Below, piece by piece: positions 29,264 through 58,676 of a stretch of 62,079 nucleotides of DNA. The stretch spans positions 39,738 through 101,816 of the forward strand of contig CAXTPQ010000005.1 in assembly GCA_964246215.1 (NCBI GenBank). The letters run 5' to 3'. Origin of the DNA: an uncultured Terriglobus sp. GTDB taxonomy: Bacteria; Acidobacteriota; Terriglobia; Terriglobales; Acidobacteriaceae. The translations under genes and the position numbers were made by a program. A model generated the notes under the pieces. That model was not told the DNA's origin. It was given only the letters and a program-made list of their open reading frames with translations, and did not search any database. Position 1 is the stretch's first letter. Every line of letters starts with the position of its first letter.

Positions 29264-30142
29264 GTGAAAGTACATCTGGTGGATGGGACCTATGAGCTGT
29301 TCCGGCATTACCACGCGCTGCCATCGCTGAAGGATGCGGACGGACGCGAGGTGGCGGCGGTACGCGGTGTGCTGGCTTCTGTGCTTGGGATGATCCGTGG
29401 CGGCGCAACGCATATGGGTGTGGCTACCGATCATGTGATTGAGTCCTTTCGCAATGCGTTATGGCCCGGCTACAAAAGCGGCGAGGGCGTGCCGGAGGAG
29501 CTGCTGCTTCAATTTTCGTTGCTGGAAGAGGCGCTTACAACCATGGGTATTGCCGTCTGGCCGATGGTGGATTTTGAGGCGGATGACGCACTGGCAGCCG
29601 CGGCAGCGCGCGCCGCGGACGATGCACGTGTGACACAGGTGCTGATCTGCACACCGGACAAGGATCTGTCGCAATGCGTGCGCGGAGAACGCGTTGTGCA
29701 GCTGGACCGGCGTAAGAACGAGATCCGCGATGAGGCCGGCGTCTGGGCGAAGTTCGGGGTCGAGCCTGCATCGATTCCGGATTATCTGGCGCTGGTGGGA
29801 GACACTGCCGATGGATTTCCGGGGTTGCCGGGGTGGGGTGCCAAGTCAGCAACCGCCGTGCTGGCGAAGTATGAGCGGCTTGAAGCCATTCCCGCGGATG
29901 CGCGCGCGTGGCAGGTGCGCGTGAGCGGAGCGGCTGGCCTGAGCGAGACGCTGGAAGAGCAGCGAGAACGGGCCATGCTCTTCCGGCGGCTTGCAACACT
30001 GCGCACGGATGTGTCCGTGTTTGACGATGTGGAGGAGCTTCGCTGGCGCGGTCCAACGAATGATTTTGAGCTGTTGGCGGCAAAGCTGGATGCCAATGTA
30101 ACGGGCGAGGGCCGACGCGGGCGCAAGCTCAATGCGCTTTAG
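29264..30142 (+). CDS. Stand-alone 5'-3' exonuclease / flap endonuclease
   Basis: LVDGT, EADD, DKDL, LVGDTADG.PG.PG.G.K (H3TH); GTG 29264 follows TACCCT. Confidence 0.88.
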   Translation: MKVHLVDGTYELFRHYHALPSLKDADGREVAAVRGVLASVLGMIRGGATHMGVATDHVIESFRNALWPGYKSGEGVPEELLLQFSLLEEALTTMGIAVWPMVDFEADDALAAAAARAADDARVTQVLICTPDKDLSQCVRGERVVQLDRRKNEIRDEAGVWAKFGVEPASIPDYLALVGDTADGFPGLPGWGAKSATAVLAKYERLEAIPADARAWQVRVSGAAGLSETLEEQRERAMLFRRLATLRTDVSVFDDVEELRWRGPTNDFELLAAKLDANVTGEGRRGRKLNAL

Positions 30143-33100
30143 TCGAGGATGCTGAAGCATCTGCAGGAGCTGCCGTGGGTTCCGGGAGATAGCCGTAGAG
30201 CAGATAGGGCTCCCGCCGCCGCCGGACATTCGCGAGATCAGTTTCCCATGCTGCGGCGATGTCGTGCGGGTCCTTGCCCGCATTTAGTGCATCCATGGTC
30301 GCCTGATTGAGAATCAGGTTCTTCGCTTTAGCGAACTGGAAAGCTTGCGGGTATTGCGCGTGCAATGCCGTGATCAACTCGATCCCAAATTCGGCGGCAT
30401 CAAAGCGTTGGCGGTCCGTGACCCGGAAGATGAGTCCGTGCACCGGCTGGCCCGCAAACGGGTAGGGCTTGGCAGGCGTGAAGCTGGTAGCGGCGATCTC
30501 GATCCCAGTCAGCTTGCGCGCGTTGAGCGTTGCGGCCAGCTGCTGTGCATCGGCGTCAGAGGCGATCCAGGCCGCACCAATCTGTTCAAAGGGCTTCTCT
30601 GTGCCGCGGCCGACGGAGATGTTGGTGAACTCAAGAAGGGCCAGACCGGGATAGAGCGTGGCGGCCTCCATGGTGCGCAGGTTGGGGCTGGGATTCACCC
30701 AGGGCAGGCCGGTTTGGTCATACCACAGGCCGCGCTGGTAGCCGCTCACGGGCACAACGGCCAGGTTTGCACCGAGGTGCCGCTCGCCGTTCACAAAGCG
30801 GGCAAACTCTCCCAGTGTCATGCCATGATGCGTCGGCTCGGACATGTAGTTGATGTAACTCTCTGTGCCCACGTCGCTGGTGGGCCCATTTACAACCACG
30901 CCGCTGATGAGCGCGGGCCGGTCCAGCACGATGACTTGCGGGTGGTTTGCTGCTTTCGCCACAGCCTCCAGAAAATATCCGACTACGGTTTCATACGTAT
31001 AGAACCGTTCACCTGCATCCTGCAAATCGATGAGGATGGCGTCGAGCTTTTCGAGGTCGGCGACCTTGGGGCGGTGGTCCTCCGGCTTGCTGCCGTAAAG
31101 GGAAAGGATCGGCAGCTTTGTTGGCCCGTCCACAGCGTTGCTGATGCCTTCCTTGTCCTCGGCCCCGGCAATGCCATGCTCGGGAGAGAAGAGCGTCGTG
31201 AGCCTGGCGTCTGGCAAGGTCTTCGGCAGGTCCTTTGCCAGGATGTCGATGGTGCGCCTGCCGTGTAGATCCACGCCGGTGTTATTGGTCAAAAGCCCGA
31301 TGCGGAGAGGTTTGTCTGGCCGCACAAGCCTTTTCAACTGCTGAAATTGCGCACGCTCTGAAACGTCAATGCCCGGCACCACCGCCTCGTCTACTCCGGA
31401 AACAAGCGTCTCGCACAACCCACCCTTTTCCAGGCTGTCGCTGCACCGGCCAACACCAAAGCCGATCTGGCCCGCAGGCGCTGTCCCATAAAGATAGAGC
31501 GCCTGCGCGGCGGCTGTGGCCACCTTGCCGCGCAGAGCCGAGATCGCCGGCCTTCCCCGTGGATGTATCGCGTTCGATAGCAAGATGACGTAGGTGTTGG
31601 AGCGCGGATCCATCCAGAGCGAGGTGCCGGTAAATCCAGTATGGCCGAAGCTGCCCACGGGAAAGACGGTGCCACGCGGGCGCGAGTAGGGGGAATCGAT
31701 GTCCCAGCCAAAGCCGCGCAGCCACTTGGCTCCAGACGGTTGCTCGGGCTGGCACATCAGGCGCAGCGTCTCCATCTTGAGTGGAAATGTACTTGGGCGA
31801 TCTGCAAGCCGGTCGAGCAGCGCCTGGGCAAACAGGCTCATATCGTGAACGTTGGAAAACGCGCCGGCATGCCCTGCCACACCGCCCATGCGGCGCGTGG
31901 TCGGGTCATGCACCGTGCCGCGCAGCAGTTCATCGTGCGTCATCGGCTTGTCGTCATTGTGGGCCGTGGGCGCGATCCGTGGGACCAGGCTTGCAGTGGG
32001 CAGGTACTGTGTTTGCGTCATCCCGAGCGGAGTAAAGATGTGCTTTGCCGCGTAGGCATCCAGCGGCTCGCCGCTGATCTTCTCCACCAGCGCACCCAGC
32101 GTGATGAAGTTGATATCGGAATACTTAAAGGTGACACCGGGCGGACCGTACGGCACCGATTCCATGGCACGGCGGATACCTTCAGCTTTACCGCTCCATA
32201 CATCGGTCAATTGCACGTCTTCGCGCAGGCCGGAGTAGTGCGTGAGCAGCTGCCGAATGGTGATGGTGCCCTTGCCATTGCTGGCGAAATCGGGCAGGTA
32301 TTTGGCAACAGGGTCGTCGAACTGCAGCTTGCCCTGCTCGTACAGTTGCATCACGGCAGTCGCGGTGGACAGGCATTTGGAGAGCGAGGCCATGTCGAAG
32401 ACGGTGTCTTCTGTCATGGGTTCAACAGCCGGCTCTAATGCACGGTCGCCGTAGGCGTGGTGATAGGCAATCTGTCCACCGTGGCCGACCACGAGCACCG
32501 CTCCGGGCAGTTCATTGTGCGCGATGGCCTCATTCAAAATGCGGTCGGTCTCGGTCCAGTCCGGAACAGTTTGCGCCTGGGAACCACGCGGTAGTGTTAT
32601 GCAGGCAAGCAGCATTGCGGCAGCGGCCAGCGCGGTACGTTTCTTCGGCAAAACGATACTGCAGATCGCGCCCACGGCAAAGGTCACGACCGAACCGATC
32701 AGCACGTACCAGGTGAATGCGACGTGGGTAACTTCATAGTAGAAAGTGCCTTTTGCCGTGGTGAGTGTGTAGCCGCTGTTCGCCGGTGTAAGCCAGAGAA
32801 AGAGGTTGAGAGCGAAGCCGCAGATCATGCCGAGGATGGCTCCTGTTTGTGTCGCAAAGCGGGTGAGTGTGCCCAGCAAAAAGACACCGAGCAGCGAGCC
32901 GTATGCGACCGAAGCAATGGACAGTCCTGTTTCGACGACGTGACCCTTGCCGCCGTGCAGCACGGAGTAAACAGCAATCGCAAACAGCACCAGAGCCCAG
33001 AAGACCGTGCTGACGCGTGAAAGCAGAGTGCGGGCGCGGTCCGTGCTGTCCGGTTTCAGCCGGAGATAAAAATCGACCACGGTCGTGGAAGAAAGGGAAT

Positions 33101-34139
33101 TGAGCGCAGCGGAAAGATTCGACATCGCTGCCGCAAGGATGGCCGCGACAAGCAGGCCGGCAACACCGGTCGGCATCTGCTGCACGATGAAGGCGGGAAA
33201 GATACGGTCAGCGGCATGCACGGTCTGTGCCTGTGGATGCTGCCCGTAAAAGACATAAAGCCCCGCGCCAATGATCAGGAAGAGCGTGAACTGCAGCAGG
33301 ACCACGCCGCCCGAGGCGAGCAGGGCAATGCGCGATTCGCGAAGGTTCCTGGCTGCAAGCAGCCGCTGCACCAGCAATTGATCTGTGCCGTGCGAGGCCA
33401 TGGTGAGGAAGGCACCGCCAAGAATCCCGGCCCAGAAGGTATACGTCGTGGTCAGGTTCAGGGTGAAGTCGAAGAGACGCAACTTGCCTGCGGCAGAGGT
33501 GGCGGCGTGGATTGCCGTCCAACCGCCATCTACTTTACTACCGAGCGTAAGGATCGCCACGATCGTTCCGGCGATGTAGAGAAACATCTGTACAACGTCG
33601 GTCCAGATGACGGCGGTCATGCCGCCCTCAAACGAGTAGAGCACTGTGAGCGCCGTGATGATGGCAATGCTTGCGATGTCGTTGGTGCCGATGGCAAGAC
33701 CGACCACGATGGAAACGGCAAAGACACGCACACCCTCTGCCGCGGCGCGCGTGAGCAGAAAGAGTCCGGCCGTGACCTTGTGCAGTACTGGACCGAAGCG
33801 CCGGTCGATCAGCTGATAGGCGGTGAAGAGCTCGCCCTGAAAATATCTCGGCAGAAAGAGCACGCAGATCACAATGCGGCCCACCATATAGCCGAGGACG
33901 AGTTGCAGGAAGGTGAAGTTACCACCGAAGGCGATGCCGGGCACGCTGATGATGGTGAGCGTGCTTGTCTCCGCCGAAACGATGGACAGCGCGATGGCCC
34001 ACCATGGCACATTGCGGCCAGCCAGAAAGTAGGTCGAAAGCGAATTGTCCGCTTTGCGGAAGCGCAGGCCGAAGATCGTGATGCCGATCAGATAGAGAGC
34101 GATGAGCGCGAGGTCGAATGCATGAAGCCGTGCCGGCAT
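30129..34139 (-). CDS. Fusion protein: sodium:solute symporter + beta-lactamase-family serine hydrolase (AmiE-like) + DUF1343/NamZ exo-beta-N-acetylmuramidase
   Basis: SSS motifs (YFLAGR, SAETST, GGMTAVIWTD, GTDQ..VQR, AAAMS); ASLSK (SxxK), YSDIN, GHTGFTG; LFSPEHG, DLQDAGERFYTY, LDRP, PSPNL, SVGRGT; one uninterrupted ORF. Confidence 0.88.
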   Translation of the reverse strand: MPARLHAFDLALIALYLIGITIFGLRFRKADNSLSTYFLAGRNVPWWAIALSIVSAETSTLTIISVPGIAFGGNFTFLQLVLGYMVGRIVICVLFLPRYFQGELFTAYQLIDRRFGPVLHKVTAGLFLLTRAAAEGVRVFAVSIVVGLAIGTNDIASIAIITALTVLYSFEGGMTAVIWTDVVQMFLYIAGTIVAILTLGSKVDGGWTAIHAATSAAGKLRLFDFTLNLTTTYTFWAGILGGAFLTMASHGTDQLLVQRLLAARNLRESRIALLASGGVVLLQFTLFLIIGAGLYVFYGQHPQAQTVHAADRIFPAFIVQQMPTGVAGLLVAAILAAAMSNLSAALNSLSSTTVVDFYLRLKPDSTDRARTLLSRVSTVFWALVLFAIAVYSVLHGGKGHVVETGLSIASVAYGSLLGVFLLGTLTRFATQTGAILGMICGFALNLFLWLTPANSGYTLTTAKGTFYYEVTHVAFTWYVLIGSVVTFAVGAICSIVLPKKRTALAAAAMLLACITLPRGSQAQTVPDWTETDRILNEAIAHNELPGAVLVVGHGGQIAYHHAYGDRALEPAVEPMTEDTVFDMASLSKCLSTATAVMQLYEQGKLQFDDPVAKYLPDFASNGKGTITIRQLLTHYSGLREDVQLTDVWSGKAEGIRRAMESVPYGPPGVTFKYSDINFITLGALVEKISGEPLDAYAAKHIFTPLGMTQTQYLPTASLVPRIAPTAHNDDKPMTHDELLRGTVHDPTTRRMGGVAGHAGAFSNVHDMSLFAQALLDRLADRPSTFPLKMETLRLMCQPEQPSGAKWLRGFGWDIDSPYSRPRGTVFPVGSFGHTGFTGTSLWMDPRSNTYVILLSNAIHPRGRPAISALRGKVATAAAQALYLYGTAPAGQIGFGVGRCSDSLEKGGLCETLVSGVDEAVVPGIDVSERAQFQQLKRLVRPDKPLRIGLLTNNTGVDLHGRRTIDILAKDLPKTLPDARLTTLFSPEHGIAGAEDKEGISNAVDGPTKLPILSLYGSKPEDHRPKVADLEKLDAILIDLQDAGERFYTYETVVGYFLEAVAKAANHPQVIVLDRPALISGVVVNGPTSDVGTESYINYMSEPTHHGMTLGEFARFVNGERHLGANLAVVPVSGYQRGLWYDQTGLPWVNPSPNLRTMEAATLYPGLALLEFTNISVGRGTEKPFEQIGAAWIASDADAQQLAATLNARKLTGIEIAATSFTPAKPYPFAGQPVHGLIFRVTDRQRFDAAEFGIELITALHAQYPQAFQFAKAKNLILNQATMDALNAGKDPHDIAAAWETDLANVRRRREPYLLYGYLPEPTAAPADASASSTKAH

Positions 34140-34179: not shown

Positions 34180-35376
34180 TTATGCTCGCGAGAGATAGCC
34201 GCCGCGCAGAAGTGAACCTGCAAAGGTGCCGTCCGGTCCAAATAGATTCAGGTTTGCCTCCGCACCCTCACGAACGTCGCCCGTGCCGTCAGAGAGGCCC
34301 AGCAGCGCGGCAGGATTGCGCGTGGCAAGCCGCACGGCTGTCGCCAGGTCCGTGCCAGCAAAGCGTTGCAGATTGGCCACGGCGCGATCCATGGTCAGCA
34401 CGGAGCCGGCCAGCACACCGCTTGACCTGCAGACGCCGTCCTGCACCTCCACCTCCAGCTCACCGAGTTTGTAAGCCCCGTCCGGCATGCCGGTGGCTGC
34501 CATGCCGTCGGTCACCAGCAGCGCACGTTCCGGGCCTTTGCCGCGGAACCAGAGCCGCACCAACTCGGGTACAACGTGAATGCCATCGCAGATCAGTTCG
34601 GCATACAAGTCATGATCGTCGAGGACCACACCAAGGATGCCGGGCTCACGATGATCGAGCGCGCGCATGGCGTTAAAGGTATGTGTCGCCGAGATGGAGG
34701 GTGGCTCGCCGTCCAGCGTCCGGGAAGCCTGGCGAGCCGAAGCAATACCCGCGCGTGCTTCTGCCGCGAGCGCGTTGGAATGGCCGATGCTGAGGCGCAC
34801 GCCGCGTGTAGCCGCATGTGCCATCATCTCCGGCGCGCCAGGCAGCTCGGGTGCCACGGTCATGAGCCGGATATAGCCGCGAGCTGCTTGGTAAAAACGA
34901 TCGAAGAGCGCTACAGAGGGTGGCTGCAGTTGCGCGGCGGGGTGTACGCCGCGTTTCGCATGCGAGAGGAACGGTCCTTCCAGGTGGATGCCGACCGGCC
35001 GTGCTCCACCGGCTGCGGGGGCGGTCTCCATGGCGGCTGCAATCTGGTCAAGCGCCTGCAGTGTTGCGTCGACCGGTGCAGTCACGGTGGTCGCCAGAAA
35101 GCTCGTCGTGCCATAACGTGCGAGCATGCGGGCCACGCCGCTTACCGCATCCGGAGCGGGCTCCATCACGTCGCGTCCGCCCGCCCCGTGCACATGAATG
35201 TCGAGGAATCCCGCGGTGATGGTGTGCCCGGGAAGGTTCAGGGTTGCGGCGGGCTGGGTCATCTCCACCTGTGTGGCGATGCGGATGATGTGTCCGTTCT
35301 CCATGAGCAACAAAGGCCTGGGCACGATGGCATGTGCCGTGATCAGTGTTTCCGCAGCTACAGCCTGATAGGTCAT
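34180..35376 (-). CDS. nagA: N-acetylglucosamine-6-phosphate deacetylase
   Basis: DIHVHG, HLEGPF, HTFNAM, DGIH, VTD, LAGS. Confidence 0.92.
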   Translation of the reverse strand: MTYQAVAAETLITAHAIVPRPLLLMENGHIIRIATQVEMTQPAATLNLPGHTITAGFLDIHVHGAGGRDVMEPAPDAVSGVARMLARYGTTSFLATTVTAPVDATLQALDQIAAAMETAPAAGGARPVGIHLEGPFLSHAKRGVHPAAQLQPPSVALFDRFYQAARGYIRLMTVAPELPGAPEMMAHAATRGVRLSIGHSNALAAEARAGIASARQASRTLDGEPPSISATHTFNAMRALDHREPGILGVVLDDHDLYAELICDGIHVVPELVRLWFRGKGPERALLVTDGMAATGMPDGAYKLGELEVEVQDGVCRSSGVLAGSVLTMDRAVANLQRFAGTDLATAVRLATRNPAALLGLSDGTGDVREGAEANLNLFGPDGTFAGSLLRGGYLSRA

Positions 35377-37535
35377 TTTGTGGCGGAGCTCGGCGTTGTG
35401 GAAGGAATTACAGAGCCGGGCAGCGGGATGCCTAGTTCCGAAGCAGGCGGCAGCGTGCCTGAATCATTCCAGGCGCGCCGTGTGGCACGCACGCGGTCAC
35501 CGCGCGTGATCCATTTGTCGACCTCGATGGTGTAGCGCTCGCTCATGGTGTGCAGGTAATAAGGCCGATAGCTCTTTAGCCAGGCTTCCTCGTACAAGTC
35601 GCGCAGCATGCTGTAGTTGTTGCGCAGGTCTTCATACTTGCCCTGCACGGAATTCGGGTGTGCGATATCGCTGAGCGAACGGATGAGCTCGGCGCGGTCG
35701 GTGCGGACTTTGCTGCCCTGCAGGGCGTACGCACGCGCGTAGTCGGCGGCGACTTCATCGGCCACCTGAAACTTGAAGCCGATCATGTCCATGCGGCGCG
35801 CTCCAAGCTCCATCACGTCCAGAGCGTCCTGCTCGCGAAGAGTGTTGGCGGCCCGCGCCTCGCGCACCAGGATCAGCGCGCGTTCCGCATGCATGCGCAA
35901 GTCGTGCAGCATAGGCCGCAGCTTGGCTGTGATGCGCTGGCCTTCCGGTGTATAGGGATCGATCCAGAAGAGAAAGTCATTGGCATCGGCACCCTTGGTG
36001 TAGCTGTCCTTGAGGAGAAGATGTGCCGCGGTCAGCTCCTGCTCAGCCTGGTCGATTTTGCCGGTGGGGTCGCCGTGAAAAACACGGCCATAGCTGCGCT
36101 GAAAGGCGGGGATGGAACTTGAGCCTGGCTGCCATGCAGCCGCCGCACCGAAGAGCACACCGTACCAGTTGGCGTTGAAGAGCGCCTCGCCGTCATCATC
36201 CCACACGGTGTTGAGCTGGCCGGTGCATCCGGCGGCCTGGCCCTCGGCCGTGAAGCCCTGAATGTTCGGAAGGGCGAGGCTGTTGTCCGGAAAAACACGG
36301 TTCCAGTCGTTCACGCCAGGGGCGACCCAGCACTCCAGATTGGCGTTGGTGAAGGGCTTAATATACGGCGCAAAGGTTGGATGAGGGTTGTATTCCCAGG
36401 CTACGGCAACGACATTGCGCTTGAAATCTGGCGGCAGTGCCTTGACTAAATCCGGCTCGTGCATCGCGACGTCGCCCCAAAAGAGGAAGCGGCGGTTTAG
36501 CGGTTTCAGGTCGGTGACAATGCGCTGCAGAAAATCCAGATAGACGGGGCCAAGGCCGCGTGCATCCACGTCCGGTTTAGTGACGCCTTTGCCGAGGTCG
36601 AAGGTTTCATCGGCGCCTAGATGCAGAAAGGGACCGGGATAATCCCCGGCGAGCTGTGTGAACATGCGATGGATGAAAGGAAGAGCCCCCGGCGCGCTGG
36701 GTGCAATGACGTGGCCGTGCGGCGTTTCCGCCAGTGGCGCGTAGAGCTCGGTGTTGAGCATGTAATGGAGGTGCCCAAAGGCCTCCTGCTCCGGGATGAT
36801 CAGGACGTGGTACTTCGCGGCGTAATTGACCAGTTCGCGCGCTTCCGCCGGTGTGATGGACCCGCCCGGCGGTGCTGCCAAAGGATCGGACACATACTGC
36901 ATTGTGTTCTCGAAATATGGCGAGTAGACATTTGCCTTGTAAGCCGCGAGCGTGCGGATTTGCTTCTTCTGGAAGTCCAGCGTGGGCACAGGTCCGCGAG
37001 ATAGATCGTCGTGCAGGCCGCGGTACTTCATCGCGGGCCAATCGCGGATGGTGGTGATGTGCAGGGTTGCCGTTGCGCTGTTGCCGGGTGTGCTGTTTTC
37101 AACGAGCTGCTTGACCGTCTGCGTGCCATAGAAGATGCCGGCCGGCGTGGCCGCGATCACCGCGATGCCGTTGCCGCGCGGAACAATGGCGTAACCCTCT
37201 GCCTGCATCTCCGGGGTGATCTGCACAGAGCCCAGTGCCTCCCGTCCTGCTGCCGAGCCGGAGCGGAGCAGGGTGACACTCACCGGTGCGCCGTTGATCG
37301 AACGCAGACCCATCTCCTGCAACGATTGCGAGAGATCCCGTGCCGCGAAGCTGTCGTCAGCGTCGCAGTCTGTACATAGCACGCTCACGCCGTTGCTCAG
37401 CGGCAGGGTTCGTTCGGCATGGACTTCGCGGGGCGCCGGCAGAAGGGTAAGTTGAGCCGATGCAACAGGCAAAGGAAATAGGGCAGCGGCAGAGAGCATA
37501 GCGGCAATCAGTAGCCGGAACCGGCAGAGGGACAT
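35373..37535 (-). CDS. Secreted GH20 beta-N-acetylhexosaminidase
   Basis: Signal peptide, GH20b domain (EGY.I...GIFYG.QT..QL), IRDWP..YRG.HDD.SRG, catalytic HLGADE. Confidence 0.88.
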   Translation of the reverse strand: MSLCRFRLLIAAMLSAAALFPLPVASAQLTLLPAPREVHAERTLPLSNGVSVLCTDCDADDSFAARDLSQSLQEMGLRSINGAPVSVTLLRSGSAAGREALGSVQITPEMQAEGYAIVPRGNGIAVIAATPAGIFYGTQTVKQLVENSTPGNSATATLHITTIRDWPAMKYRGLHDDLSRGPVPTLDFQKKQIRTLAAYKANVYSPYFENTMQYVSDPLAAPPGGSITPAEARELVNYAAKYHVLIIPEQEAFGHLHYMLNTELYAPLAETPHGHVIAPSAPGALPFIHRMFTQLAGDYPGPFLHLGADETFDLGKGVTKPDVDARGLGPVYLDFLQRIVTDLKPLNRRFLFWGDVAMHEPDLVKALPPDFKRNVVAVAWEYNPHPTFAPYIKPFTNANLECWVAPGVNDWNRVFPDNSLALPNIQGFTAEGQAAGCTGQLNTVWDDDGEALFNANWYGVLFGAAAAWQPGSSSIPAFQRSYGRVFHGDPTGKIDQAEQELTAAHLLLKDSYTKGADANDFLFWIDPYTPEGQRITAKLRPMLHDLRMHAERALILVREARAANTLREQDALDVMELGARRMDMIGFKFQVADEVAADYARAYALQGSKVRTDRAELIRSLSDIAHPNSVQGKYEDLRNNYSMLRDLYEEAWLKSYRPYYLHTMSERYTIEVDKWITRGDRVRATRRAWNDSGTLPPASELGIPLPGSVIPSTTPSSATK

Positions 37536-37676
37536 GCAAGAAAGCTATACGAATCCCCCCTGTGCCGTAAGCGTGTGGGTATTTAGGGCGAGACCTGCCG
37601 GATTTGGTAGGCTTCTCTTGCCGTAGCTGCAATGCATGCGGCGTCGCGAGTTGCGCGATGGGAGTTTTGGCCGCAA

Positions 37677-39065
37677 ATGGCTCTGCACGAAGATCGTCTC
37701 TTCCCCTCTGACCCGGCTACCCGCCAAGTGGCGCGGCGTCTCTATGGCATCGCGCGCGACCTGCCGATTGTGAGTCCGCATGGACATACGGATCCCGCGT
37801 GGTTCGCGAAAAATGAGGCTTTTCCGAATCCCGCGGCGCTGCTGATTCAGCCGGATCACTATGTCTTCCGCATGCTGTACTCGCAGGGTGTTTCGTTGGA
37901 GTCGCTCGGCATTGGAGGTCATGCCGCAGACCCGCGCGAAGTGTGGCGAATCTTTGCCCGGAACTACTATCTTTTCCGGGGCACGCCGACCCGGTTGTGG
38001 CTCGATACAGTATTTGGTTCGATCTTTGGACTTGACGAGCGTTTGACCGAATCAAACGCGGACAGCTTTTACGAGGTGATCGAAAAGGCCCTGCAAACGC
38101 CGGAGTTCCGGCCTCGTGCCCTGTATAAGCGCTTCCGGTTAGAGGTGTTGGCGACGACCGATTCGCCGCTCGATTCTCTGGAGCACCATCGCGCGATCCG
38201 CGACTCCGGCTGGAAAGGCCGAGTGATCCCAACCTTTCGTCCTGATGCTGTGATCGACGCCGGCTTTCCAGGGTTCCGAGAAAATTTACAAAGGCTCGGT
38301 GAACTGACCGGCGAAGATGTGAGCGGCTATGCCGGTTATCTGGCCTCACTGCGTCAGCGGCGAACCTGCTTTCGCCAGATGGGTGCCACGGCTACAGATC
38401 ACGGCCATCTGACTGCCCAAACTGCGGACCTCTCCAGAACCGAAGCCGAGGCGCTCTACGCAAAGATTTTTCAAGGCACTGCCGATGTTCAAGATGCTGA
38501 GCTTTTCCAGGCGCAGATGCTGACGGAGATGGCCGGCATGAGTGTGGATGACGGCATGGTCATGCAGCTGCATCCCGGGTCTATCCGCAATCACAACACG
38601 GGGCTGTATGAGAAGTTCGGGCGTGACAAGGGTGCCGATATTCCCTCGTCAACCGAGTATGTGCGCGCGCTGCGTCCTTTGCTGAACAAGTTTGGCAATG
38701 AGCTGAACTTCACTCTCGTGCTATTTACGTTGGATGAGTCGGCCTACGCCCGCGAGCTGGCACCGCTGGCGGGACACTACCCCTGCCTGCGGCTCGGCCC
38801 GGCGTGGTGGTTTCATGACTCGCCGGAAGGCATGATGCGGTATCGCGAGCAGGTGACGGAGACAGCCGGCTTTTACAACACTGCTGGATTCAACGACGAC
38901 ACGCGCGCGTTCCTCTCCATCCCGGCGCGGCATGATGTAGCGCGGCGCATTGATGCCGCATACCTCGGACGGCTTGTGGCGGAGCACCGTTTGGACGAGG
39001 AAGAAGCCGTGGAGCTGATCCAGGACCTGACCGTGGGTCTGGCGCGAAAGGTGTACCGGCTGTGA
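37677..39065 (+). CDS. uxaC: Uronate (glucuronate) isomerase
   Basis: SPHGH, PDHY.FRML, TTD.P.D.L, WWFHDS, FNDDTRAF.SIPARHD. Confidence 0.95.
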   Translation: MALHEDRLFPSDPATRQVARRLYGIARDLPIVSPHGHTDPAWFAKNEAFPNPAALLIQPDHYVFRMLYSQGVSLESLGIGGHAADPREVWRIFARNYYLFRGTPTRLWLDTVFGSIFGLDERLTESNADSFYEVIEKALQTPEFRPRALYKRFRLEVLATTDSPLDSLEHHRAIRDSGWKGRVIPTFRPDAVIDAGFPGFRENLQRLGELTGEDVSGYAGYLASLRQRRTCFRQMGATATDHGHLTAQTADLSRTEAEALYAKIFQGTADVQDAELFQAQMLTEMAGMSVDDGMVMQLHPGSIRNHNTGLYEKFGRDKGADIPSSTEYVRALRPLLNKFGNELNFTLVLFTLDESAYARELAPLAGHYPCLRLGPAWWFHDSPEGMMRYREQVTETAGFYNTAGFNDDTRAFLSIPARHDVARRIDAAYLGRLVAEHRLDEEEAVELIQDLTVGLARKVYRL

Positions 39066-40339
39066 GCACTTACTGCTCCATTGGCTCACCCACAACGGAA
39101 CTCTCGCCCGCTGAATTGCAGGCGCATCTCACGGCGGCGCTGGAGCAGCTTGGTCCACCCAAGCGTGTGCTCGCCGTACCGCCGGACATCTCACGGATGC
39201 ACTCGCAGGCCGGCGTGCTGACTGAAATGGCTTGGCGGCACTACGGCCCAGCGCTGACTGATGTTCTGCCGGCGCTGGGCACGCACCGGCCCATGACCGA
39301 TGCTGAGATTGCCGCGATGTACGGCGATACGCCGCGCGATCTCTTCCGCGTGCACGACTGGCGCAACGACGTGATCACGCTGGGTGAGGTGCCCGGCGAA
39401 TTTATGCACCCGGTGAGTGAGGGCAAGCTGGATTATCCGTGGCCCGCACAGGTCAACAAGCTCCTGCGCGATGGCGGCCACGATCTCATCCTCTCCATTG
39501 GCCAGGTGGTGCCTCATGAGGTCATTGGCATGGCTAACGGCAACAAGAACATCTTTATCGGCACGGGCGGAGTGATGGGCATCCATCGTTCTCATTTTTT
39601 GGGCGCGGTGTACGGCATGGAGCGCATCATGGGCCGGGCTTCTTCGCCCGTCCGGTCGGTGCTGAATTATGCTTCGGAGCACTTTGCCCGATTCATGCCT
39701 CAGATCGTCTACGTGTTGACGGTGGTGGGCAAAAGTCTGGCCGGACAGCTTGCCGTGCGCGGACTGTTCATCGGTGATGACACGGAATGCTTTGAGCAAG
39801 CCGCTGCTCTGGCGTTGCAGGTCAATTTCGTCATGATGGACCGGGAAATCCGCAAGGCCGTTGTCTACCTGGACCCGCACGAGTTCAAGAGCACCTGGCT
39901 CGGCAATAAGAGCATCTATCGCACGCGTATGGCACTGGCGGACGATGCGGAACTGATCGTGCTGGCGCCCGCTGTCCACGAGTTTGGTGAGGACCCCGTG
40001 ATCGATACACTCATCCGGCGCCATGGTTACCGCGGTACGCCGCGCACACTGGAAGCGGTAAAGCACGACCCTGAGTTGGCTGCGAACCTGAGTGCCGCGG
40101 CACACCTGATCCATGGATCGAGTGAAGGCCGTTTTGGCATCACCTATTGTCCCGGCCATCTCTCCCGGCAGGAGATTGAAGCCGCCGGTTTCGGTTATGG
40201 TGATCTGGCGCACATGACTTCGAAATACGACCCGCTCACGATGCATGACGGCTGGAACCACATCGCCGGTGAGGATATTTTTTTCGTCAGCAACCCGGGA
40301 TTGGGATTGTGGGCGCATCAGGAGCGTTTTAACGCATGA
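39062..40339 (+). CDS. LarA-superfamily (DUF2088) racemase/epimerase, GntE-like
   Basis: PDISR, ALGTHRPM, HDW, VVPHEVIGMANGNK resemble LarA motifs; lies between uxaC and gluconokinase. Confidence 0.75.
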   Translation: MSTYCSIGSPTTELSPAELQAHLTAALEQLGPPKRVLAVPPDISRMHSQAGVLTEMAWRHYGPALTDVLPALGTHRPMTDAEIAAMYGDTPRDLFRVHDWRNDVITLGEVPGEFMHPVSEGKLDYPWPAQVNKLLRDGGHDLILSIGQVVPHEVIGMANGNKNIFIGTGGVMGIHRSHFLGAVYGMERIMGRASSPVRSVLNYASEHFARFMPQIVYVLTVVGKSLAGQLAVRGLFIGDDTECFEQAAALALQVNFVMMDREIRKAVVYLDPHEFKSTWLGNKSIYRTRMALADDAELIVLAPAVHEFGEDPVIDTLIRRHGYRGTPRTLEAVKHDPELAANLSAAAHLIHGSSEGRFGITYCPGHLSRQEIEAAGFGYGDLAHMTSKYDPLTMHDGWNHIAGEDIFFVSNPGLGLWAHQERFNA

Positions 40340-40920
40340 CCACTCAGGACATCACTTCGTCCGTTCTCGTCTTCATCCTGATGGGCGTGACCGGTTCCGG
40401 TAAGACGACCATCGGCACCGACCTCGCGCAGCACATCGGTGCCGAGTTCATCGATGCGGACGACTACCACCCGGAGGCCAACAAGGAAAAGATGCAGGCG
40501 GGCATCCCGTTGACGGACGCCGATCGATGGCCCTGGCTGGCTAAATTGAACCAGATGCTGCTTGCCCATGTCACGGCAGGGCAGACCTGTGTGTTGGCCT
40601 GTTCCGCGCTGAAGGAGTCCTACCGCGACTTGCTGGAACAGGGACTCCCGCCCACGCAGGTCAGATTCGTCTTCCTGGAAGCCACCCGCGAGTTGCTTGA
40701 AATCCGTTTGGCCCATCGTCACCACGAGTTTATGAATAGCAATCTCCTTAGCAGCCAGCTCGCCACACTGGAAGAACCGGAAGATGCGATCCGCATCAGC
40801 AACGACAGATCGCCAGACGAGGTGGTGCAGGAAATCCTGGATGCCACGTCCGGAGCAACGTCCAACATGGCGGCCGCGCCACGGCAAGCCGGCGGAAAGG
40901 AGGGGCAGAGTGGCACGTAA
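40336..40920 (+). CDS. gntK: Gluconokinase (GntK/IdnK type)
   Basis: MGVTGSGKTT, DADDYHP..N..KM..GIPLTDADR.PWL, CSALK..YR, SQLATLEEP. Confidence 0.9.
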   Translation: MTTQDITSSVLVFILMGVTGSGKTTIGTDLAQHIGAEFIDADDYHPEANKEKMQAGIPLTDADRWPWLAKLNQMLLAHVTAGQTCVLACSALKESYRDLLEQGLPPTQVRFVFLEATRELLEIRLAHRHHEFMNSNLLSSQLATLEEPEDAIRISNDRSPDEVVQEILDATSGATSNMAAAPRQAGGKEGQSGT

Positions 40921-41686
40921 CCTGTTCGACTTGTCCGGCAGGACGGCAGTGGTGGTCGGCGGCACCTCTGGCATCGGTCTCGCGATCTCATTAGGTCTGG
41001 CAGAGGCTGGTGCAAACGTGGTGGCGAGTTCACGCCGCAAGGAACAGGTCGAACAAACCGCTGCACAACTTGAGTATGCCGGAGCAAAAACGCTGCGCGT
41101 GACCTCCGACGTGTGCGATCGAAGCTCTCTGCAGCGGCTGCTGAATGCGACGCTGGAGAGCTTCGGCCAGGTCGATACCCTGGTCAATTGCGCCGGCAAG
41201 ATCAAGCGGGAGCCGACCCTGACCCTGAGTGAAGCGACCTGGAACGACATCATGGAGACGAACGTGACGGGAACGCTGCGTGCCTGCCAGATCTTCGGCG
41301 CGCATATGCTGGAACGCGGGTACGGCCGCATCGTGAATATCGCTTCTCTCAATACCTTTGTATCGCTGAAAGAAGTCACAGCCTATGCGGCCAGCAAAGC
41401 GGCAGTTGGCGCGTTGACCAAGTCATTGGCCGTGGAGTGGAGTGCGCGGGGCGTCGCGGTGAATGCCATTGCTCCCGGGGTTTTTCGCACCGCGCTGAAT
41501 GCCGATCTACTGGACAACAGTGAGCGCGGCAAGGAGCTTCGCATGCGCACGCCCATGGGCCGTTTTGGACGAACTGATGAAGTGGTGGGTGCGGCGATTT
41601 ACCTGTGCAGTGACGCTGCCAGCTTTGTCACGGGTGAAATCCTGGTCGTGGATGGTGGCTTTTTGGCCAGTGGAGTGAACCAGTGA
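40910..41686 (+). CDS. SDR oxidoreductase (gluconate 5-DH/KduD/mannonate oxidoreductase-like)
   Basis: GGTSGIG, NCAG, YAASK, VNAIAPG, VDGG; AGGAGG RBS before GTG 40910. Confidence 0.88.
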   Translation: MARNLFDLSGRTAVVVGGTSGIGLAISLGLAEAGANVVASSRRKEQVEQTAAQLEYAGAKTLRVTSDVCDRSSLQRLLNATLESFGQVDTLVNCAGKIKREPTLTLSEATWNDIMETNVTGTLRACQIFGAHMLERGYGRIVNIASLNTFVSLKEVTAYAASKAAVGALTKSLAVEWSARGVAVNAIAPGVFRTALNADLLDNSERGKELRMRTPMGRFGRTDEVVGAAIYLCSDAASFVTGEILVVDGGFLASGVNQ

Positions 41687-42779: not shown

Positions 42780-43394
42780 GTGCAGCACCAACCTTCATCC
42801 ACTGCGTTTCGGTTATGGTTGGAGCGGAGTTTGTGCTGTCTCGGTCTGATCTGCGCTGGGCTGTGTCTGCTCGTTACATTGCGAGCAGGGGCAGCCCTTC
42901 GCTCCGTTCACGCCATGGTGACGCCAACTGCACAGCGGAGTGGCGCCTCCACTCCGGAGAGAGACGAATCTACGCTGGACGGGTTTTTGGGTGAGCTCTC
43001 CATCCCAAAAATTTCTTTGACCGTACCCATTCTCCCGGACTACGACACTGGCAGCCTGCTCAAAGGCATTGGACACGTGAAAGGCACGGCATTGCCCGGT
43101 GGTCTGGGCAATATGGGCTTGGCTGGACATCGTGATACCTACTTCCGTCCGCTCCGGAATATCTCGGCCGGGATGGATATCCGCGTCAAGGACGCGAATG
43201 GCACTTACCACTACATCGTCGATCGTATGGAAGTGGTGATGCCCGACCAGGTTAGCGTTCTAGACATAGGACAACGCCCTGAACTGACGCTGATCACCTG
43301 CTACCCATTCAATTATGTGGGCGCGGCACCAAAACGCTTTATCGTTCATGCACATCTGCTTTCCGTCGATGCAGACTCGTCTGGCCGGCAGTAG
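42780..43394 (+). CDS. Class D sortase
   Basis: N-terminal TM; LAGHRDT (His), LTLITCYPF (Cys), PKRFIV (Arg). Confidence 0.92.
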   Translation: MQHQPSSTAFRLWLERSLCCLGLICAGLCLLVTLRAGAALRSVHAMVTPTAQRSGASTPERDESTLDGFLGELSIPKISLTVPILPDYDTGSLLKGIGHVKGTALPGGLGNMGLAGHRDTYFRPLRNISAGMDIRVKDANGTYHYIVDRMEVVMPDQVSVLDIGQRPELTLITCYPFNYVGAAPKRFIVHAHLLSVDADSSGRQ

Positions 43395-43591
43395 TGTACG
43401 GTTTCCATATCCGCCTAAAAATACCCACTTTGTGGGAAAGACTTCTACCCGAACGTCCTTACGAACGCTACGTTTGTTCGGCTATCGACGACATAGAATC
43501 GCTTCAAACAACGACGTCTGAGCAGTGGCCCGAACGACGCGGCAGAGTTGCGATGATCTCGGCGTGCGATCTCTTTTGGGTGGATGTCTAC

Positions 43592-46424: not shown

Positions 46425-47612
46425 TCAGGCTGCTTGCATGTGGACGCTGGGCAAATCCCGTGTTGGGGAAAGCTTCTGGTCAAGTGCCTCGCGAACCGTA
46501 TCGGCACGAACCCGCCAGGTTGCATTGCGGCTGGCATTCCAGCGGAGTGCCTGGTGACCATCATTGAAGTTTTGCGATTGCAACTGGCGTAAGTGATCAA
46601 TCATCTCCGCCGCTGTGGCAACCAGCTTTAGAAGTGGTTCTTTGTGCGTAAGTTCCTCAAAGCCGCGTGTCGCGATCATGGGCCGGCAAGCAGCAAGGTG
46701 CTCGTAAAAGCGAGTGCTGGATCCGGAGTAGGTCGGTTCCAGTTTCCGGTAAGGCAATACGGCAACATCCAGAGCTCTCGCGTAGCTGCCGAGTGCAGCA
46801 TGAGGGCGAGCTCCGATGAAATGTGCATTCGGTAATGACATGACATCTTTGCGAGCTTGGCTGTAAACCTGGTCAGCGATGGTCATGGTGTACGGCCCGA
46901 CAAAGAGCCAGCTCAGGTCGAGCGTTTGCCTCATCGCCTCACGCACCAGTAGCCAGTCGATGTTGCCCGCTTGATTCCCGAGAACACCGATCACCGGCTT
47001 GCCACGCGGCAAACGCAAATCTGCGGGCAAGGGTGCTGGATAGATGGCTGGCTCGCCATACAGATTGACCGCGCGAACGGCATTTGGAATCACCACGATC
47101 TTACCCGGCGAACAGCTCGCACTCTCAACTAGGTAGTTGCCGATGCGCTGTGAATTGGGGCAGACCAGCGTTGCTGCCGCGCACATTCGCCGGTCCAAGG
47201 CAGGAATGTCTTTGCCGGAGGCGCTCTCGTACTTATCGATCAAATCGGTCAACCAATAAACAACAGGTCCCGGCCAAAGTTCCGCTACCGGTGCAAAATA
47301 AGGAACTGTACAAATCAACGGACTGTGCCGGTCGGGCACATGCGGCAGCATCTGCTTCAAGACATTCGGCCCCGTGCGCGCAATCAGAGAGAGGGGATAC
47401 GTAGCGTAGCCGCGCAAAAGTGAAAACTTTCGGATTCTGAAGCTTGGTGCAACGTCCCGCGATACTGAATTGTTGCGTGAGCGGATTGGAAAGTAAGTAC
47501 GATGCGGTTCCCACCCCTGGACTGGAACCGACTCGGCAAGGGCAGAGGCAAATTCCAGGTCCAAGGCGTCGGATATTTGCAAGAGCTGCCATTCGGTTGT
47601 AGCTCGATCCAT
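46425..47612 (-). CDS. GT-B glycosyltransferase (GT4/TuaH-like)
   Basis: VVYWLTD, VIPNAV, GVLGN....IDW.L, LDVAVLPY, FYEHLAACRPMI. Confidence 0.8.
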   Translation of the reverse strand: MDRATTEWQLLQISDALDLEFASALAESVPVQGWEPHRTYFPIRSRNNSVSRDVAPSFRIRKFSLLRGYATYPLSLIARTGPNVLKQMLPHVPDRHSPLICTVPYFAPVAELWPGPVVYWLTDLIDKYESASGKDIPALDRRMCAAATLVCPNSQRIGNYLVESASCSPGKIVVIPNAVRAVNLYGEPAIYPAPLPADLRLPRGKPVIGVLGNQAGNIDWLLVREAMRQTLDLSWLFVGPYTMTIADQVYSQARKDVMSLPNAHFIGARPHAALGSYARALDVAVLPYRKLEPTYSGSSTRFYEHLAACRPMIATRGFEELTHKEPLLKLVATAAEMIDHLRQLQSQNFNDGHQALRWNASRNATWRVRADTVREALDQKLSPTRDLPSVHMQAA

Positions 47613-47618
47613 ATCGTC

Positions 47619-49031: not shown

Positions 49032-49040
49032 ACACTGACC

Positions 49041-50279
49041 TCATGCGGCGCTGTGGCTGTGGTCCGCGACATAACTCCTCCTGCCCTGTTCCGGGATCAT
49101 GGAGGCAACCTGGTTTTCAAGCTCGCCCGTCAGAATCCGGGCGATGCGCCGGACGCCGATGGGCAGGTCGTAATATTCCAACAGCGCCTGACGTGCGCGC
49201 TTTCCTGCGGCAGTCACCTCTTCCGGGTGATCTGCCAAATGAAGCAGAAGTTCGGTGAGCCGGTCCACATCATTACAAGCGACATGCCAGCCACATTTGT
49301 GCCGTTCAATCGTCAAAGCCGGCGTAGCACTTGCCGGCCCAATAAAAAGAATGGGCCTTCCGGCCGCCATGATGCCATAGACCTTGCTGGGCACCACCGT
49401 TCCGGAGCAGACATCATCCTGGGTCACTAAGCCGATGTCGCCCGCGGCAAGGCCTTCGCTCAGCTTGTCGCGCGAAACATACGGTCGCATCTCCAGCCGG
49501 GTCACACTGTGCTCCTTGGCAAACTCCTCCACCTGCTTACGCTTGTTTCCACCACCCACAAATAGGTAACGGAATGGCTTGTCGCGCAGATTGCTCATGG
49601 CCGCACAAATCGTGTCGATATCATGCGCGAGACCAAGATTTCCTGAGTACAGCAGGACAAGTTCATTCGGGTCGCCAGGCCGGTCCATGGGAGTGATCGC
49701 GGCGGCATTTGCCCAGTTCTCGGCAATCTGAATTTTGCCGGGAGCGATGCCGCGCCGTATCAGCCGGGTCTTCATGCATTCGCCGAGCGCGATGATACCG
49801 TCCGCATGCCGGCGGCTGAAATCGGCGAAGACTGCCGTGAACCGTTCCGCGACTCCACCCTTCTTGATGTAGTGCAAGTCGACCGCCACATCGGGATACA
49901 AATCCTGCTCCCAGATGTAATGCCGCGACCCGCGCAGCATCTTGATCATGCTGCCGACCAGCGAGATGACCGGTGGCGTGGTGAGCGACACCACCACATC
50001 CATGCGCGGCAGAACCGGGCCGCGCAGTGCCGCCGTCGTGTAGAACGACAAGTAGGACAGCAGACGTCCCAATTTTCCTTTGACGAAGGGTAATGCCTTA
50101 ACCCGGTGAATTGTGACCGGTGGCTGTGTACTTGCGGCCGCAGCCGCATAGCCGCCCTCACCGCAAAGCACATGGATCTCATGACCAAGTTCCGCCAAGC
50201 CGGTCGCCAGATCGGTCAATTGCTGGCTGGTGGCCGAGGAATCCGGCCAGAAGAATTGGTTGATAAAGAGGATCCTCAT
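49041..50279 (-). CDS. GT4 glycosyltransferase (WcaI/WbuB-like)
   Basis: NQFFWPD, QDLYPD, YSGNLG.AH, VPSKVYGIMAAGRP. Confidence 0.88.
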   Translation of the reverse strand: MRILFINQFFWPDSSATSQQLTDLATGLAELGHEIHVLCGEGGYAAAAASTQPPVTIHRVKALPFVKGKLGRLLSYLSFYTTAALRGPVLPRMDVVVSLTTPPVISLVGSMIKMLRGSRHYIWEQDLYPDVAVDLHYIKKGGVAERFTAVFADFSRRHADGIIALGECMKTRLIRRGIAPGKIQIAENWANAAAITPMDRPGDPNELVLLYSGNLGLAHDIDTICAAMSNLRDKPFRYLFVGGGNKRKQVEEFAKEHSVTRLEMRPYVSRDKLSEGLAAGDIGLVTQDDVCSGTVVPSKVYGIMAAGRPILFIGPASATPALTIERHKCGWHVACNDVDRLTELLLHLADHPEEVTAAGKRARQALLEYYDLPIGVRRIARILTGELENQVASMIPEQGRRSYVADHSHSAA

Positions 50280-58659: not shown

Positions 58660-58676
58660 ATATTTGGCCGCCAATC

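What the first reader, a model, noticed from the sequence alone, without database searches (positions are those of the whole stretch)
30129..34139. Transporter-amidase-muramidase fusion: a single-polypeptide peptidoglycan salvage machine
Seen: one uninterrupted ~1336-aa ORF with a complete SSS symporter (~34139-32650), a beta-lactamase-fold hydrolase with SxxK/YxD/HTG motifs (~32570-31490) and a DUF1343 domain (~31380-30200). Known: in Bacillus subtilis the separate proteins AmiE (beta-lactamase-fold MurNAc-L-Ala amidase) and NamZ (DUF1343 exo-beta-N-acetylmuramidase) degrade muropeptides with a hexosaminidase. Inference: the two periplasmic hydrolases are tethered to the importer of their product (MurNAc/GlcNAc), which would allow channelled, PTS- and AmpG-independent cell-wall scavenging. 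I do not know of a characterised protein with this architecture.
Basis: partly seen in the sequence, partly recalled or inferred. Interest (0 to 1): 0.85.

Follow-up and report, generated by a model that had tools for sequence, protein, structure and literature searches.

The report
Wall-sugar importer–enzyme fusion with internal signal
One real, conserved gene of soil Acidobacteria joins a membrane importer to two cell-wall-recycling enzymes through an intact export signal, so it is likely a precursor that is cut into a muramic-acid importer and a free periplasmic enzyme pair rather than a permanently tethered machine.

Summary
The 1,336-aa ORF is real: SSS symporter, beta-lactamase-fold (AmiE/PBP4B-like) domain and NamZ. 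It is fused the same way in 19 of 24 congeneric genomes. The tether idea is doubtful. The joint is a complete Sec-type signal peptide: 177 of 190 fused homologues keep [AG]-[QE] after the hydrophobic core (shuffles 74±7), while neighbouring positions are saturated. The same SSS subfamily fused independently several times (single origins rejected): to AmiE-NamZ, GH3, NamZ alone, even an efflux adaptor. Nearly all these joints keep the passenger's own signal, including lipoprotein-type Cys signals. Best reading: a polyprotein cut by signal peptidase I into a 13-helix importer and a free, rigid periplasmic AmiE-NamZ (pTM 0.91, versus 0.61 for SSS+AmiE). The importer likely takes MurNAc or anhydro-MurNAc: murQ lies in 40 and a MurK-like kinase in 46 of 80 loci; the family has AnmK (40/40) but rarely AmpG (1/40). 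No activity or cleavage is shown. Ten literature searches found no description. This scan found the same fusion earlier on three other genomes, one with a similar reading.

The parts
30129..34139 (-). Fused ORF, 1,336 aa: SSS symporter - signal-peptide joint - AmiE/PBP4B-like amidase - NamZ
   Evidence: conserved full length in 119 other listed clusters
32649..34139 (-). SSS symporter, residues 1-497, 13 predicted membrane helices; likely MurNAc/anhydro-MurNAc importer
   Evidence: SSF and TIGR00813 above cut-off; best solved relative SiaT 5nv9/5nva; model; R131, R138, H250 in 156 of 156 subfamily rows; gene context
32574..32648 (-). Joint, residues 498-522: basic KKR, hydrophobic core, S520-Q521-A522 before Q523; predicted internal signal peptide and signal peptidase I site
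   Evidence: 13-residue low-confidence helix 503-515 in the model; cleavage itself is inferred
31551..32546 (-). Beta-lactamase-fold serine hydrolase (residues 532-863), AmiE/PBP4B-like; predicted exo-MurNAc-L-Ala amidase
   Evidence: among beta-lactamase-fold models the best NCBIfam match is PBP4B, 137.5 bits, below its 385 cut-off; 31% identity to E. coli YfeW/PBP4B of the murQP operon, with SxxK, YSD, VHD and GHTG shared
30195..31301 (-). NamZ/DUF1343 (GH171) domain, residues 947-1315; predicted exo-beta-N-acetylmuramidase; E987 and R1178 invariant
   Evidence: relatives 4k05 and 4jja by sequence and fold
34180..35376 (-). nagA, GlcNAc-6-phosphate deacetylase, directly upstream on the same strand
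   Evidence: TIGR00221 284.5 bits, cut-off 225.65
35373..37535 (-). GH20 hexosaminidase with an N-terminal signal ending A-Q and a G-A-D-E motif; likely first gene of the operon (overlaps nagA by 4 nt)

Best explanation
The gene encodes one 1,336-residue chain that is likely cut by signal peptidase I after Ala522 into a membrane importer and a free periplasmic amidase-muramidase, which together are predicted to salvage muramic acid from cell-wall fragments. Shown: the chain, its domains, the conserved signal-like joint, the operon neighbours and the repeated fusions. Inferred steps: (1) the chain inserts as a 13-helix SSS; the joint crosses the membrane as a 14th segment and exports the 814-residue C-terminal part; (2) LepB cuts at S520-Q521-A522/Q523; (3) the GH20 removes GlcNAc, the AmiE-like domain removes the stem peptide, and NamZ releases MurNAc, as NagZ, AmiE and NamZ do in B. 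subtilis; (4) the SSS imports MurNAc or anhydro-MurNAc, probably with Na+; (5) a MurK-type kinase or AnmK, then MurQ, NagA and NagB feed it into amino-sugar metabolism. The fusion would fix 1:1 co-production; it survives because cleavage restores the two ancestral proteins.
For: Joint motif: [AG][QE] after the hydrophobic core in 177 of 190 fused homologues (500 shuffles: mean 74, max 95); strict small-x-A-[QE] in 124 (shuffles: mean 27, max 47); at least one K/R before the core in 190 of 190; 183 of 190 if Ser is allowed at -1. Positions -2, -4 and -5 have column identity 0.08-0.11 against 0.78 for the SSS core, so the joint had time to decay. Six in-to-out SSS helices of the same proteins give the strict motif in 0, 0, 11, 0, 0, 0 of 190. 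Free AmiE-NamZ proteins carry the same kind of N-terminal signal ([AGS][QE] in 20 of 27 scored). Independent origins: AU tests reject one clade for all AmiE-NamZ fusions (p 2e-47) and for all GH3 fusions (p 3e-5) on 50 rows (tree). All 13 Thermoanaerobaculia-clade joints examined end their hydrophobic stretch in Cys-Ala, and a free sister there has an N-terminal lipoprotein signal (L059). Unrelated passengers (RND adaptor, PEGA/kinase proteins) are fused with their signals intact. Re-fission: G003, G015 and G022 nest inside the fused clade, with a DUF3738 gene between the parts in G003 and G015. Models: AmiE+NamZ pTM 0.91, SSS+AmiE pTM 0.61. Substrate context: of 80 subfamily loci, BadF-type kinase 46, murQ 40, GH3 34, namZ 30, any of these 59; the best solved relative of one such kinase is a MurNAc/GlcNAc kinase, 8zo3; a Streptomyces homologue lies next to anmK. 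The own genome has 2 MurQ, 1 BadF kinase, a NagB-family gene and 3 signal peptidase I matches. Precedent: S. aureus LtaS is cut by SpsB between its membrane and outer domains (PMC11898559 passages).
Against: No cleavage, activity or uptake was measured, and no SignalP-type predictor was available. The joint is hydrophobic enough to act as an uncleaved anchor: median best 19-residue Kyte-Doolittle score 1.78, within the 1.61-2.41 of the core helices. The -1/+1 conservation is partly by construction, and the 190 rows are kin, so the shuffle test overstates. The loose motif also follows SSS helix 8 in 84 of 190. A few joints lack the site (e.g. P0150, P0207; P0344). In a marine cluster (P0287, 34 members, one named Ca. 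Neomarinimicrobiota) a NamZ-like domain is joined directly to the outer N-terminus of this SSS with no signal between, so true tethering does occur in the subfamily. Most Cys joints are not canonical lipoboxes. The local operon (GH20, nagA) fits GlcNAc import as well as MurNAc. The amidase assignment rests on 31% identity to PBP4B, and its closest solved relatives are esterases.
Confidence: 0.62

Rival explanations
1. Tethered machine: the joint is an uncleaved or slowly cleaved 14th helix that holds AmiE-NamZ next to the importer, raising local product concentration.
For: The fusion has been kept across several genera. The joint's hydrophobicity matches real helices. A direct NamZ-SSS tether without a signal exists in P0287. 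LtaS release has been described as slow (PMC11898559 passage), so full-length protein could be present for a while.
Against: The cleavage motif is retained against a saturated background. Most subfamily members are unfused: 89 of the 90 matches outside the family have no frame over 1,200 aa. Re-fission has occurred inside the fused clade. The SSS+AmiE model shows no confident packing. Unrelated passengers are fused in the same way.
Confidence: 0.22
2. Same processing, different cargo: the SSS imports GlcNAc or the MurNAc-GlcNAc disaccharide, and/or the beta-lactamase-fold domain is an esterase or peptidase rather than a MurNAc-L-Ala amidase.
For: nagA and GH20 are the immediate neighbours; BadF kinases include GlcNAc kinases; the PBP4B score is under cut-off and the best solved relatives are esterases.
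Against: murQ, which acts only on MurNAc-6-P, lies in 40 of 80 loci. Two arginines on helix 4 are invariant (156 of 156), which suits an acidic sugar (inference by analogy with SiaT). The domain is linked to NamZ and to GH3, and shares the VHD motif with PBP4B.
Confidence: 0.11
3. Nested start: the enzyme is made mainly from an internal start just before the signal peptide, so the apparent fusion is two overlapping translation units.
For: The joint is a complete signal peptide; Met509 is in frame in this protein.
Against: A Met between the end of the last SSS helix and the hydrophobic core occurs in only 38 of 190. GTG/TTG starts and ribosome-binding sites were not tested.
Confidence: 0.05

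Closest known systems
Bacillus subtilis murQ-murR-murP-amiE-nagZ-namZ (PMC8054146; passages and section 12 read)
   Same: AmiE-like amidase, NamZ, a hexosaminidase and MurQ for exo-lytic breakdown and MurNAc catabolism
   Different: Here uptake is by an SSS, not a PTS (none found); the local hexosaminidase is GH20, not GH3; AmiE and NamZ are one unit joined to the importer
Tannerella forsythia namZ1-murT-murK-murQ (PMC5790795, PMC7670621, PMC5388701, bioRxiv 2021.12.02.470905; passages read)
   Same: PTS-independent MurNAc importer plus BadF-type kinase plus MurQ next to a GH171 gene; PMC5790795 calls MurT a sodium symporter superfamily member in its introduction
   Different: MurT is a separate gene beside ampG; the same paper calls it MFS in its discussion and PMC7670621 calls it a novel Bacteroidetes family, so homology to this SSS is unresolved; T. 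forsythia has no AnmK
SiaT of Proteus mirabilis (5nv9; PMC5931594 passages read)
   Same: 13-helix N-out/C-in SSS fold (TM-score 0.87 on the target); acidic N-acetyl sugar as likely cargo; Na-site residues partly kept (A337, S340, D181, S343)
   Different: 25% identity; SiaT Arg135 aligns to Ala134, with invariant Arg131 and Arg138 one turn away; Ser343 to Asn341 and Ser346 to Ala344; no C-terminal passenger
Staphylococcus aureus LtaS (PMC11898559 passages read)
   Same: Polytopic membrane protein whose outer enzyme domain is released by signal peptidase I at an internal site
   Different: LtaS is one enzyme and is reported to be inactivated by the cut; here two independently working proteins would be released from each other
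Bradyrhizobium FbcH cytochrome b-c1 precursor (recalled only; not found in one search)
   Same: Membrane protein and exported protein made as one precursor with an internal signal peptide
   Different: Respiratory complex subunits that reassemble; unrelated sequences

Membership tests
SSS / sodium:solute symporter (PF00474, TIGR00813) | Profile score above curated cut-off | tested here: met
   142 bits against 22.8; 215 against 184
SSS / sodium:solute symporter (PF00474, TIGR00813) | LeuT fold with 13-14 helices, N-terminus outside | tested here: met
   model; Foldseek best hits SiaT, SMCT1, NIS; positive-inside count
SSS / sodium:solute symporter (PF00474, TIGR00813) | Na2 site (two hydroxyls on TM8) | tested here: inconclusive
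   S340 kept in 151 of 156, but the second position is N/S/P/T (N341 here)
SSS / sodium:solute symporter (PF00474, TIGR00813) | Ion-coupled transport | not testable with these tools
   needs uptake assay
SiaT sialic acid transporters | Arg135 and nan gene context | tested here: not met
   Ala134 at that column; neighbours identified are mur/nag genes
MurT of T. forsythia | Sequence homology to Tanf_08375 | not testable with these tools
   sequence and original paper not held; the one Tannerellaceae namZ locus fetched was not the murT cluster
MurT of T. forsythia | Linkage to murK and murQ | tested here: met
   kinase in 46 and murQ in 40 of 80 subfamily loci; both unlinked in the own genome
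NamZ / GH171 exo-beta-N-acetylmuramidase | NamZ_N and NamZ_C domains above cut-off, fold of BF0371/BF0379 | tested here: met
NamZ / GH171 exo-beta-N-acetylmuramidase | Conserved Glu after strand 2 and Arg of the C-terminal domain (Glu92, Arg279 in BsNamZ) | tested here: met
   E987 (P-E-H-G) and R1178 (G-R-G) invariant in 29 and 81 sequences; the mapping to B. subtilis numbering is inferred from the paper's description, not from an alignment with BsNamZ
NamZ / GH171 exo-beta-N-acetylmuramidase | Hydrolysis of pNP-MurNAc / MurNAc-GlcNAc | not testable with these tools
   needs enzyme assay; TfNamZ1 shows that specificity varies in the family
AmiE / PBP4B exo-amidases | SxxK, YxD, HTG motifs on a beta-lactamase fold | tested here: met
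AmiE / PBP4B exo-amidases | PBP4B equivalog score above cut-off | tested here: not met
   137.5 bits against 385; still well above AmpH (62.7) and class C beta-lactamase (60)
AmiE / PBP4B exo-amidases | Direct homology to B. subtilis AmiE and amidase activity | not testable with these tools
   AmiE sequence and the 2010 paper not held; that AmiE and YfeW are one family is recalled
Class C beta-lactamase (resistance enzyme) | Score above family cut-off | tested here: not met
   60 bits against 415
Sec/SPI signal peptide (internal) | Basic n-region, hydrophobic core, small residues at -3/-1 | tested here: met
   (pattern tests of my own, not a trained predictor)
Sec/SPI signal peptide (internal) | Core too short or weak to be a stable membrane anchor | tested here: inconclusive
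   13-residue helix in the model, but hydrophobicity is not separable from core helices
Sec/SPI signal peptide (internal) | Actual cleavage by LepB | not testable with these tools
   needs N-terminomics or blots

The most novel reading that the evidence does not exclude
The C-terminus of this SSS subfamily is a recurring bacterial polyprotein platform: at least five independent fusions turned a downstream exported protein into a tail that is released by signal peptidase I or, in Thermoanaerobaculia and some Vicinamibacterales, lipidated and released as a lipoprotein from the end of a 13-helix transporter. The subfamily itself is the missing MurNAc/anhydro-MurNAc importer that lets Acidobacteriota recycle cell wall with AnmK and MurQ but without AmpG or a PTS.
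Probability: 0.4. Interest if true: 0.72.

Novelty: new variant of a known kind. Interest (0 to 1): 0.5.

Why it matters
It names a testable route for cell-wall recycling and necromass scavenging in one of the most abundant soil phyla, whose family Acidobacteriaceae carries AnmK (40 of 40 genomes) but almost never AmpG (1 of 40): break the wall down to single sugars in the periplasm, then import them with an SSS. It also offers natural, repeated examples of internal signal peptides of both classes behind a polytopic transporter, which bears on how Sec, LepB and Lgt/LspA handle C-terminal passengers and warns against reading every transporter-enzyme fusion as substrate channelling. The chemistry is known; the packaging and the importer's cargo are what is new and untested.

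Tried and rejected
Assembly artefact: rejected by conservation. 'Open frame' lengths from the genome search were not trusted after G015 showed 1,635 aa yet proved split by translation; I re-translated the loci used in the genus and family counts. Long frames in G134, G169, G266 and G111 are upstream extensions, not C-terminal fusions; P0136 and P0141 have only an SSF domain. 'Joint too short to be a membrane helix': not supported by hydrophobicity. 'AnmK is absent, so only foreign wall is used': rejected, since AnmK is missing from this draft but present in 29 of 30 congeners and 40 of 40 family genomes. Single ancient fusion: rejected. Expression: no RNA holder listed; contigs only. Complex prediction of SSS with NamZ was not available, so docking was not tested. 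Promoter/terminator scan found nothing above chance. MurT comparison failed for lack of a sequence. MurK-specific residues of T. forsythia could not be mapped, because that kinase was not among the PDB hits. Papers sought but not held: Litzinger 2010, an LtaS cleavage paper, Ruscitto 2016. Literature searches (listings seen; nine papers opened as passages) showed no account of this fusion; subscription journals and bioRxiv supplements were out of reach, and no supplement was read.
Full report
Observation. Window 30129-34139 (-) is one open frame of 1,336 aa with SSF 37-441, Beta-lactamase 532-863, NamZ_N 947-1157 and NamZ_C 1162-1315. Upstream on the same strand lie nagA (34180-35376) and a GH20 hexosaminidase with its own signal peptide (35373-37535). 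All 120 best full-length hits, one being the window's own, carry the four domains, and the named ones are Terriglobus, Edaphobacter, Granulicella and Tunturiibacter, so the window is probably from a Terriglobus (inference). Translation of the loci from 24 congeneric genomes gave 19 fully fused, 1 fused at the joint with a frame break inside the amidase, 3 split and 1 cut by a contig end. In a draw of 250 genomes of the phylum, 107 had this SSS at E <= 1e-70 (the tally includes unpublished G063). Of the 17 in the same family, 9 are fused and 8 split. Of the 90 outside the family, one (G107) has the same triple fusion.

The parts. The SSS folds into 13 long helices and its closest solved relative is SiaT, which has 13 helices with the N-terminus outside and the C-terminus inside (PMC5931594 passages). 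Lys+Arg counts fit this topology (16 in 85 inside residues, 7 in 108 outside). One more membrane crossing therefore puts the hydrolases in the periplasm. The second domain has S585-x-x-K588, Y673-S-D675 and H833-T-G835; its best NCBIfam match among beta-lactamase-fold models is PBP4B, below cut-off, and it is 31% identical to E. coli YfeW, the gene after murQ-murP. That YfeW and B. subtilis AmiE form one family is recalled, not tested. The third domain matches the DUF1343 structures 4k05 and 4jja and keeps an invariant Glu and Arg that probably correspond to Glu92 and Arg279 of BsNamZ. AmiE and NamZ are predicted as one rigid unit (pTM 0.91), whereas SSS plus AmiE gives pTM 0.61 at pLDDT 88.6, with the joint at pLDDT near or below 50.

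What the importer likely carries. Eighty GTDB loci of this SSS subfamily were fetched (the best 80 of 600 candidates, Pyrinomonadaceae over-represented, flanks up to 7 kb). A BadF-type kinase lies in 46, murQ in 40, GH3 in 34, namZ in 30, a beta-lactamase-fold gene in 48 and nagB in 11; 59 of 80 have at least one of the first four, and 29 of the 36 loci of full length do. One such kinase is closest to a solved MurNAc/GlcNAc kinase (8zo3). A Streptomyces homologue at 38% identity sits beside anmK. R131, R138 and H250 are invariant in 156 of 156 rows. The own genome has two MurQ, one BadF kinase and a NagB-family gene, but no PTS EIIC, AmpG or AnmK (93.6% complete). AnmK is in 29 of 30 congeners and 40 of 40 family genomes, AmpG in 1 of 40 (these tallies include unpublished G292). 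A family with AnmK and MurQ but without AmpG or, in the one genome checked, a PTS needs an importer of free (anhydro-)MurNAc; this SSS is the obvious candidate (inference). GlcNAc or a disaccharide is not excluded.

The joint. Residues 498-522 read as a Sec signal peptide: KKR, a hydrophobic core, then S-Q-A before Q523. Of the 219 proteins then held, 190 passed my filters (SSS at least 55% identical to the query, amidase present, anchors found). All 190 have a K/R before the core; 177 have [AG][QE] after it against 74±7 (max 95) in 500 shuffles, and 124 have the strict small-x-A-[QE] against 27±5; 183 if Ser is allowed. Positions -2, -4 and -5 are near random (0.08-0.11 column identity; SSS core 0.78), so the joint has had time to decay. 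Six in-to-out helices of the same SSS proteins give the strict motif in 0-11 of 190; the loose motif reaches 84 after helix 8. Free AmiE-NamZ proteins have the same kind of signal at their N-termini (20 of 27 scored, 4 dropped for lack of an anchor). Against cleavage: the joint is as hydrophobic as core helices (1.78 against 1.61-2.41), the rows are kin, and a few joints lack the site. A conserved internal Met is not seen (38 of 190).

Repeated fusion. Searching with the distant fusion from G107 and with a subfamily profile found the same SSS fused to AmiE-NamZ in Thermoanaerobaculia and in two long-branch rows near a Pirellulaceae locus, to GH3 in three separate places, to NamZ alone, to an RND efflux adaptor, and to PEGA/kinase proteins. 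On a quick tree of 156 rows the fused state changes at least 14 times (some 'free' labels may be contig-cut). On 50 selected rows, AU tests reject one clade for all AmiE-NamZ fusions (p 2e-47) and for all GH3 fusions (p 3e-5) (LG+G4, groups defined by fusion type, tested after I had seen the larger tree). Nearly all joints keep a signal. All 13 Thermoanaerobaculia-clade joints examined end their hydrophobic stretch in Cys-Ala, only some as canonical lipoboxes, and the free sister L059 starts with a lipoprotein signal; the RND-adaptor fusions also have Cys joints. Inside the Acidobacteriaceae fused clade, G003, G015 and G022 have split again, and in G003 and G015 a DUF3738 gene lies between the parts. 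This is what one expects if loss of the SSS stop codon is tolerated because a signal peptidase restores the two proteins. Counter-examples exist: P0344 has no clear site, and P0287 (34 members, one named Ca. Neomarinimicrobiota) has a NamZ-like domain, lacking the P-E-H-G motif, joined directly to the outer N-terminus of the SSS.

Mechanism and odds. Most likely (0.62) a precursor cut by signal peptidase I (three matches in the genome) into an importer and a free periplasmic amidase-muramidase; with the GH20 these would reduce wall fragments to GlcNAc, peptides and MurNAc, as NagZ, AmiE and NamZ do in B. subtilis (PMC8054146 passages), and MurNAc would enter through the SSS to a kinase, MurQ, NagA and NagB. 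Rivals: lasting tether 0.22, other cargo or activity 0.11, nested start 0.05. Nothing biochemical is shown.

Comparison and novelty. The pathway parts are known: B. subtilis amiE-nagZ-namZ; T. forsythia murT-murK-murQ, a PTS-independent MurNAc uptake route whose transporter is described inconsistently as sodium-symporter or MFS (PMC5790795 passages) or as a novel family (PMC7670621 passage); DD-peptidase-DUF1343 and GH3-DD-peptidase architectures (PMC2605481 passage). Internal cleavage of a polytopic protein by signal peptidase I has a precedent in LtaS (PMC11898559 passages); FbcH is recalled only. Searches listed no paper on the SSS fusion; most subscription journals were not searchable and no supplement was read. 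The scan had noted the same fusion on three other genomes, two mentioning the signal-like joint; I had reached that reading before looking. Verdict: new variant of a known kind, interest 0.5.

Noticed in passing
P0287 (cluster of 34): Reverse fusion in a marine lineage (one member named Ca. Neomarinimicrobiota): a NamZ-like domain without the P-E-H-G motif is joined directly to the outer N-terminus of this SSS. It could be a dead enzyme reused as a tethered sugar-binding domain.
   Followed up: partly
L127:2041-4566, L128:6992-9493, P0242: The same SSS subfamily fused through a Cys-type signal to an RND efflux periplasmic adaptor (Vicinamibacterales-related); a passenger unrelated to cell-wall salvage.
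   Followed up: partly
P0147, P0154: SSS fused through an intact signal to PEGA-domain proteins, one ending in a Ser/Thr kinase.
   Followed up: no
L045:8700-9872, L046:8401-9309: A DUF3738 gene lies between the re-split SSS and AmiE-NamZ genes in G003 and G015.
   Followed up: partly
window 42780-43394 and 43394-46111: A sortase-domain gene directly followed by a 905-aa protein with Ig-like (Big_7) domains in a Gram-negative genome; no sorting motif was checked.
   Followed up: no
window 37632-41686: Divergent uronate cluster: uxaC, a nickel-dependent LarA-family putative hexonate epimerase (NF052594 above cut-off) and a short-chain dehydrogenase.
   Followed up: no
L037, L040, L041, L042, L043, L044, L097 (amino acid permease ORFs): An APC-family permease often lies next to the unfused SSS; a candidate importer for released stem-peptide residues.
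   Followed up: no
L097, L113 and other Vicinamibacterales loci: GHL10 (PF02638) hydrolase, stand-alone beta-lactamase-fold gene, murQ, kinase and nagB form a different cluster around the same SSS, without namZ.
   Followed up: no
L044:7155-7928, L123:5183-5971, L134:5038-5799: A conserved ORF of about 255 aa without a Pfam match lies beside the BadF kinase in several loci; it may be a shadow frame.
   Followed up: partly
L007 (G019): The fused gene lacks about 130 residues at the start of the NamZ domain, including the conserved Glu region; deletion or mis-assembly.
   Followed up: no
window 46425-61091: Exopolysaccharide cluster: glycosyltransferases, flippase, Wzc-like and Wza-like genes; ordinary.
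   Followed up: no
G000 whole genome: anmK is missing from this draft though present in 29 of 30 congeners; the assembly has many 100-N scaffold gaps.
   Followed up: yes
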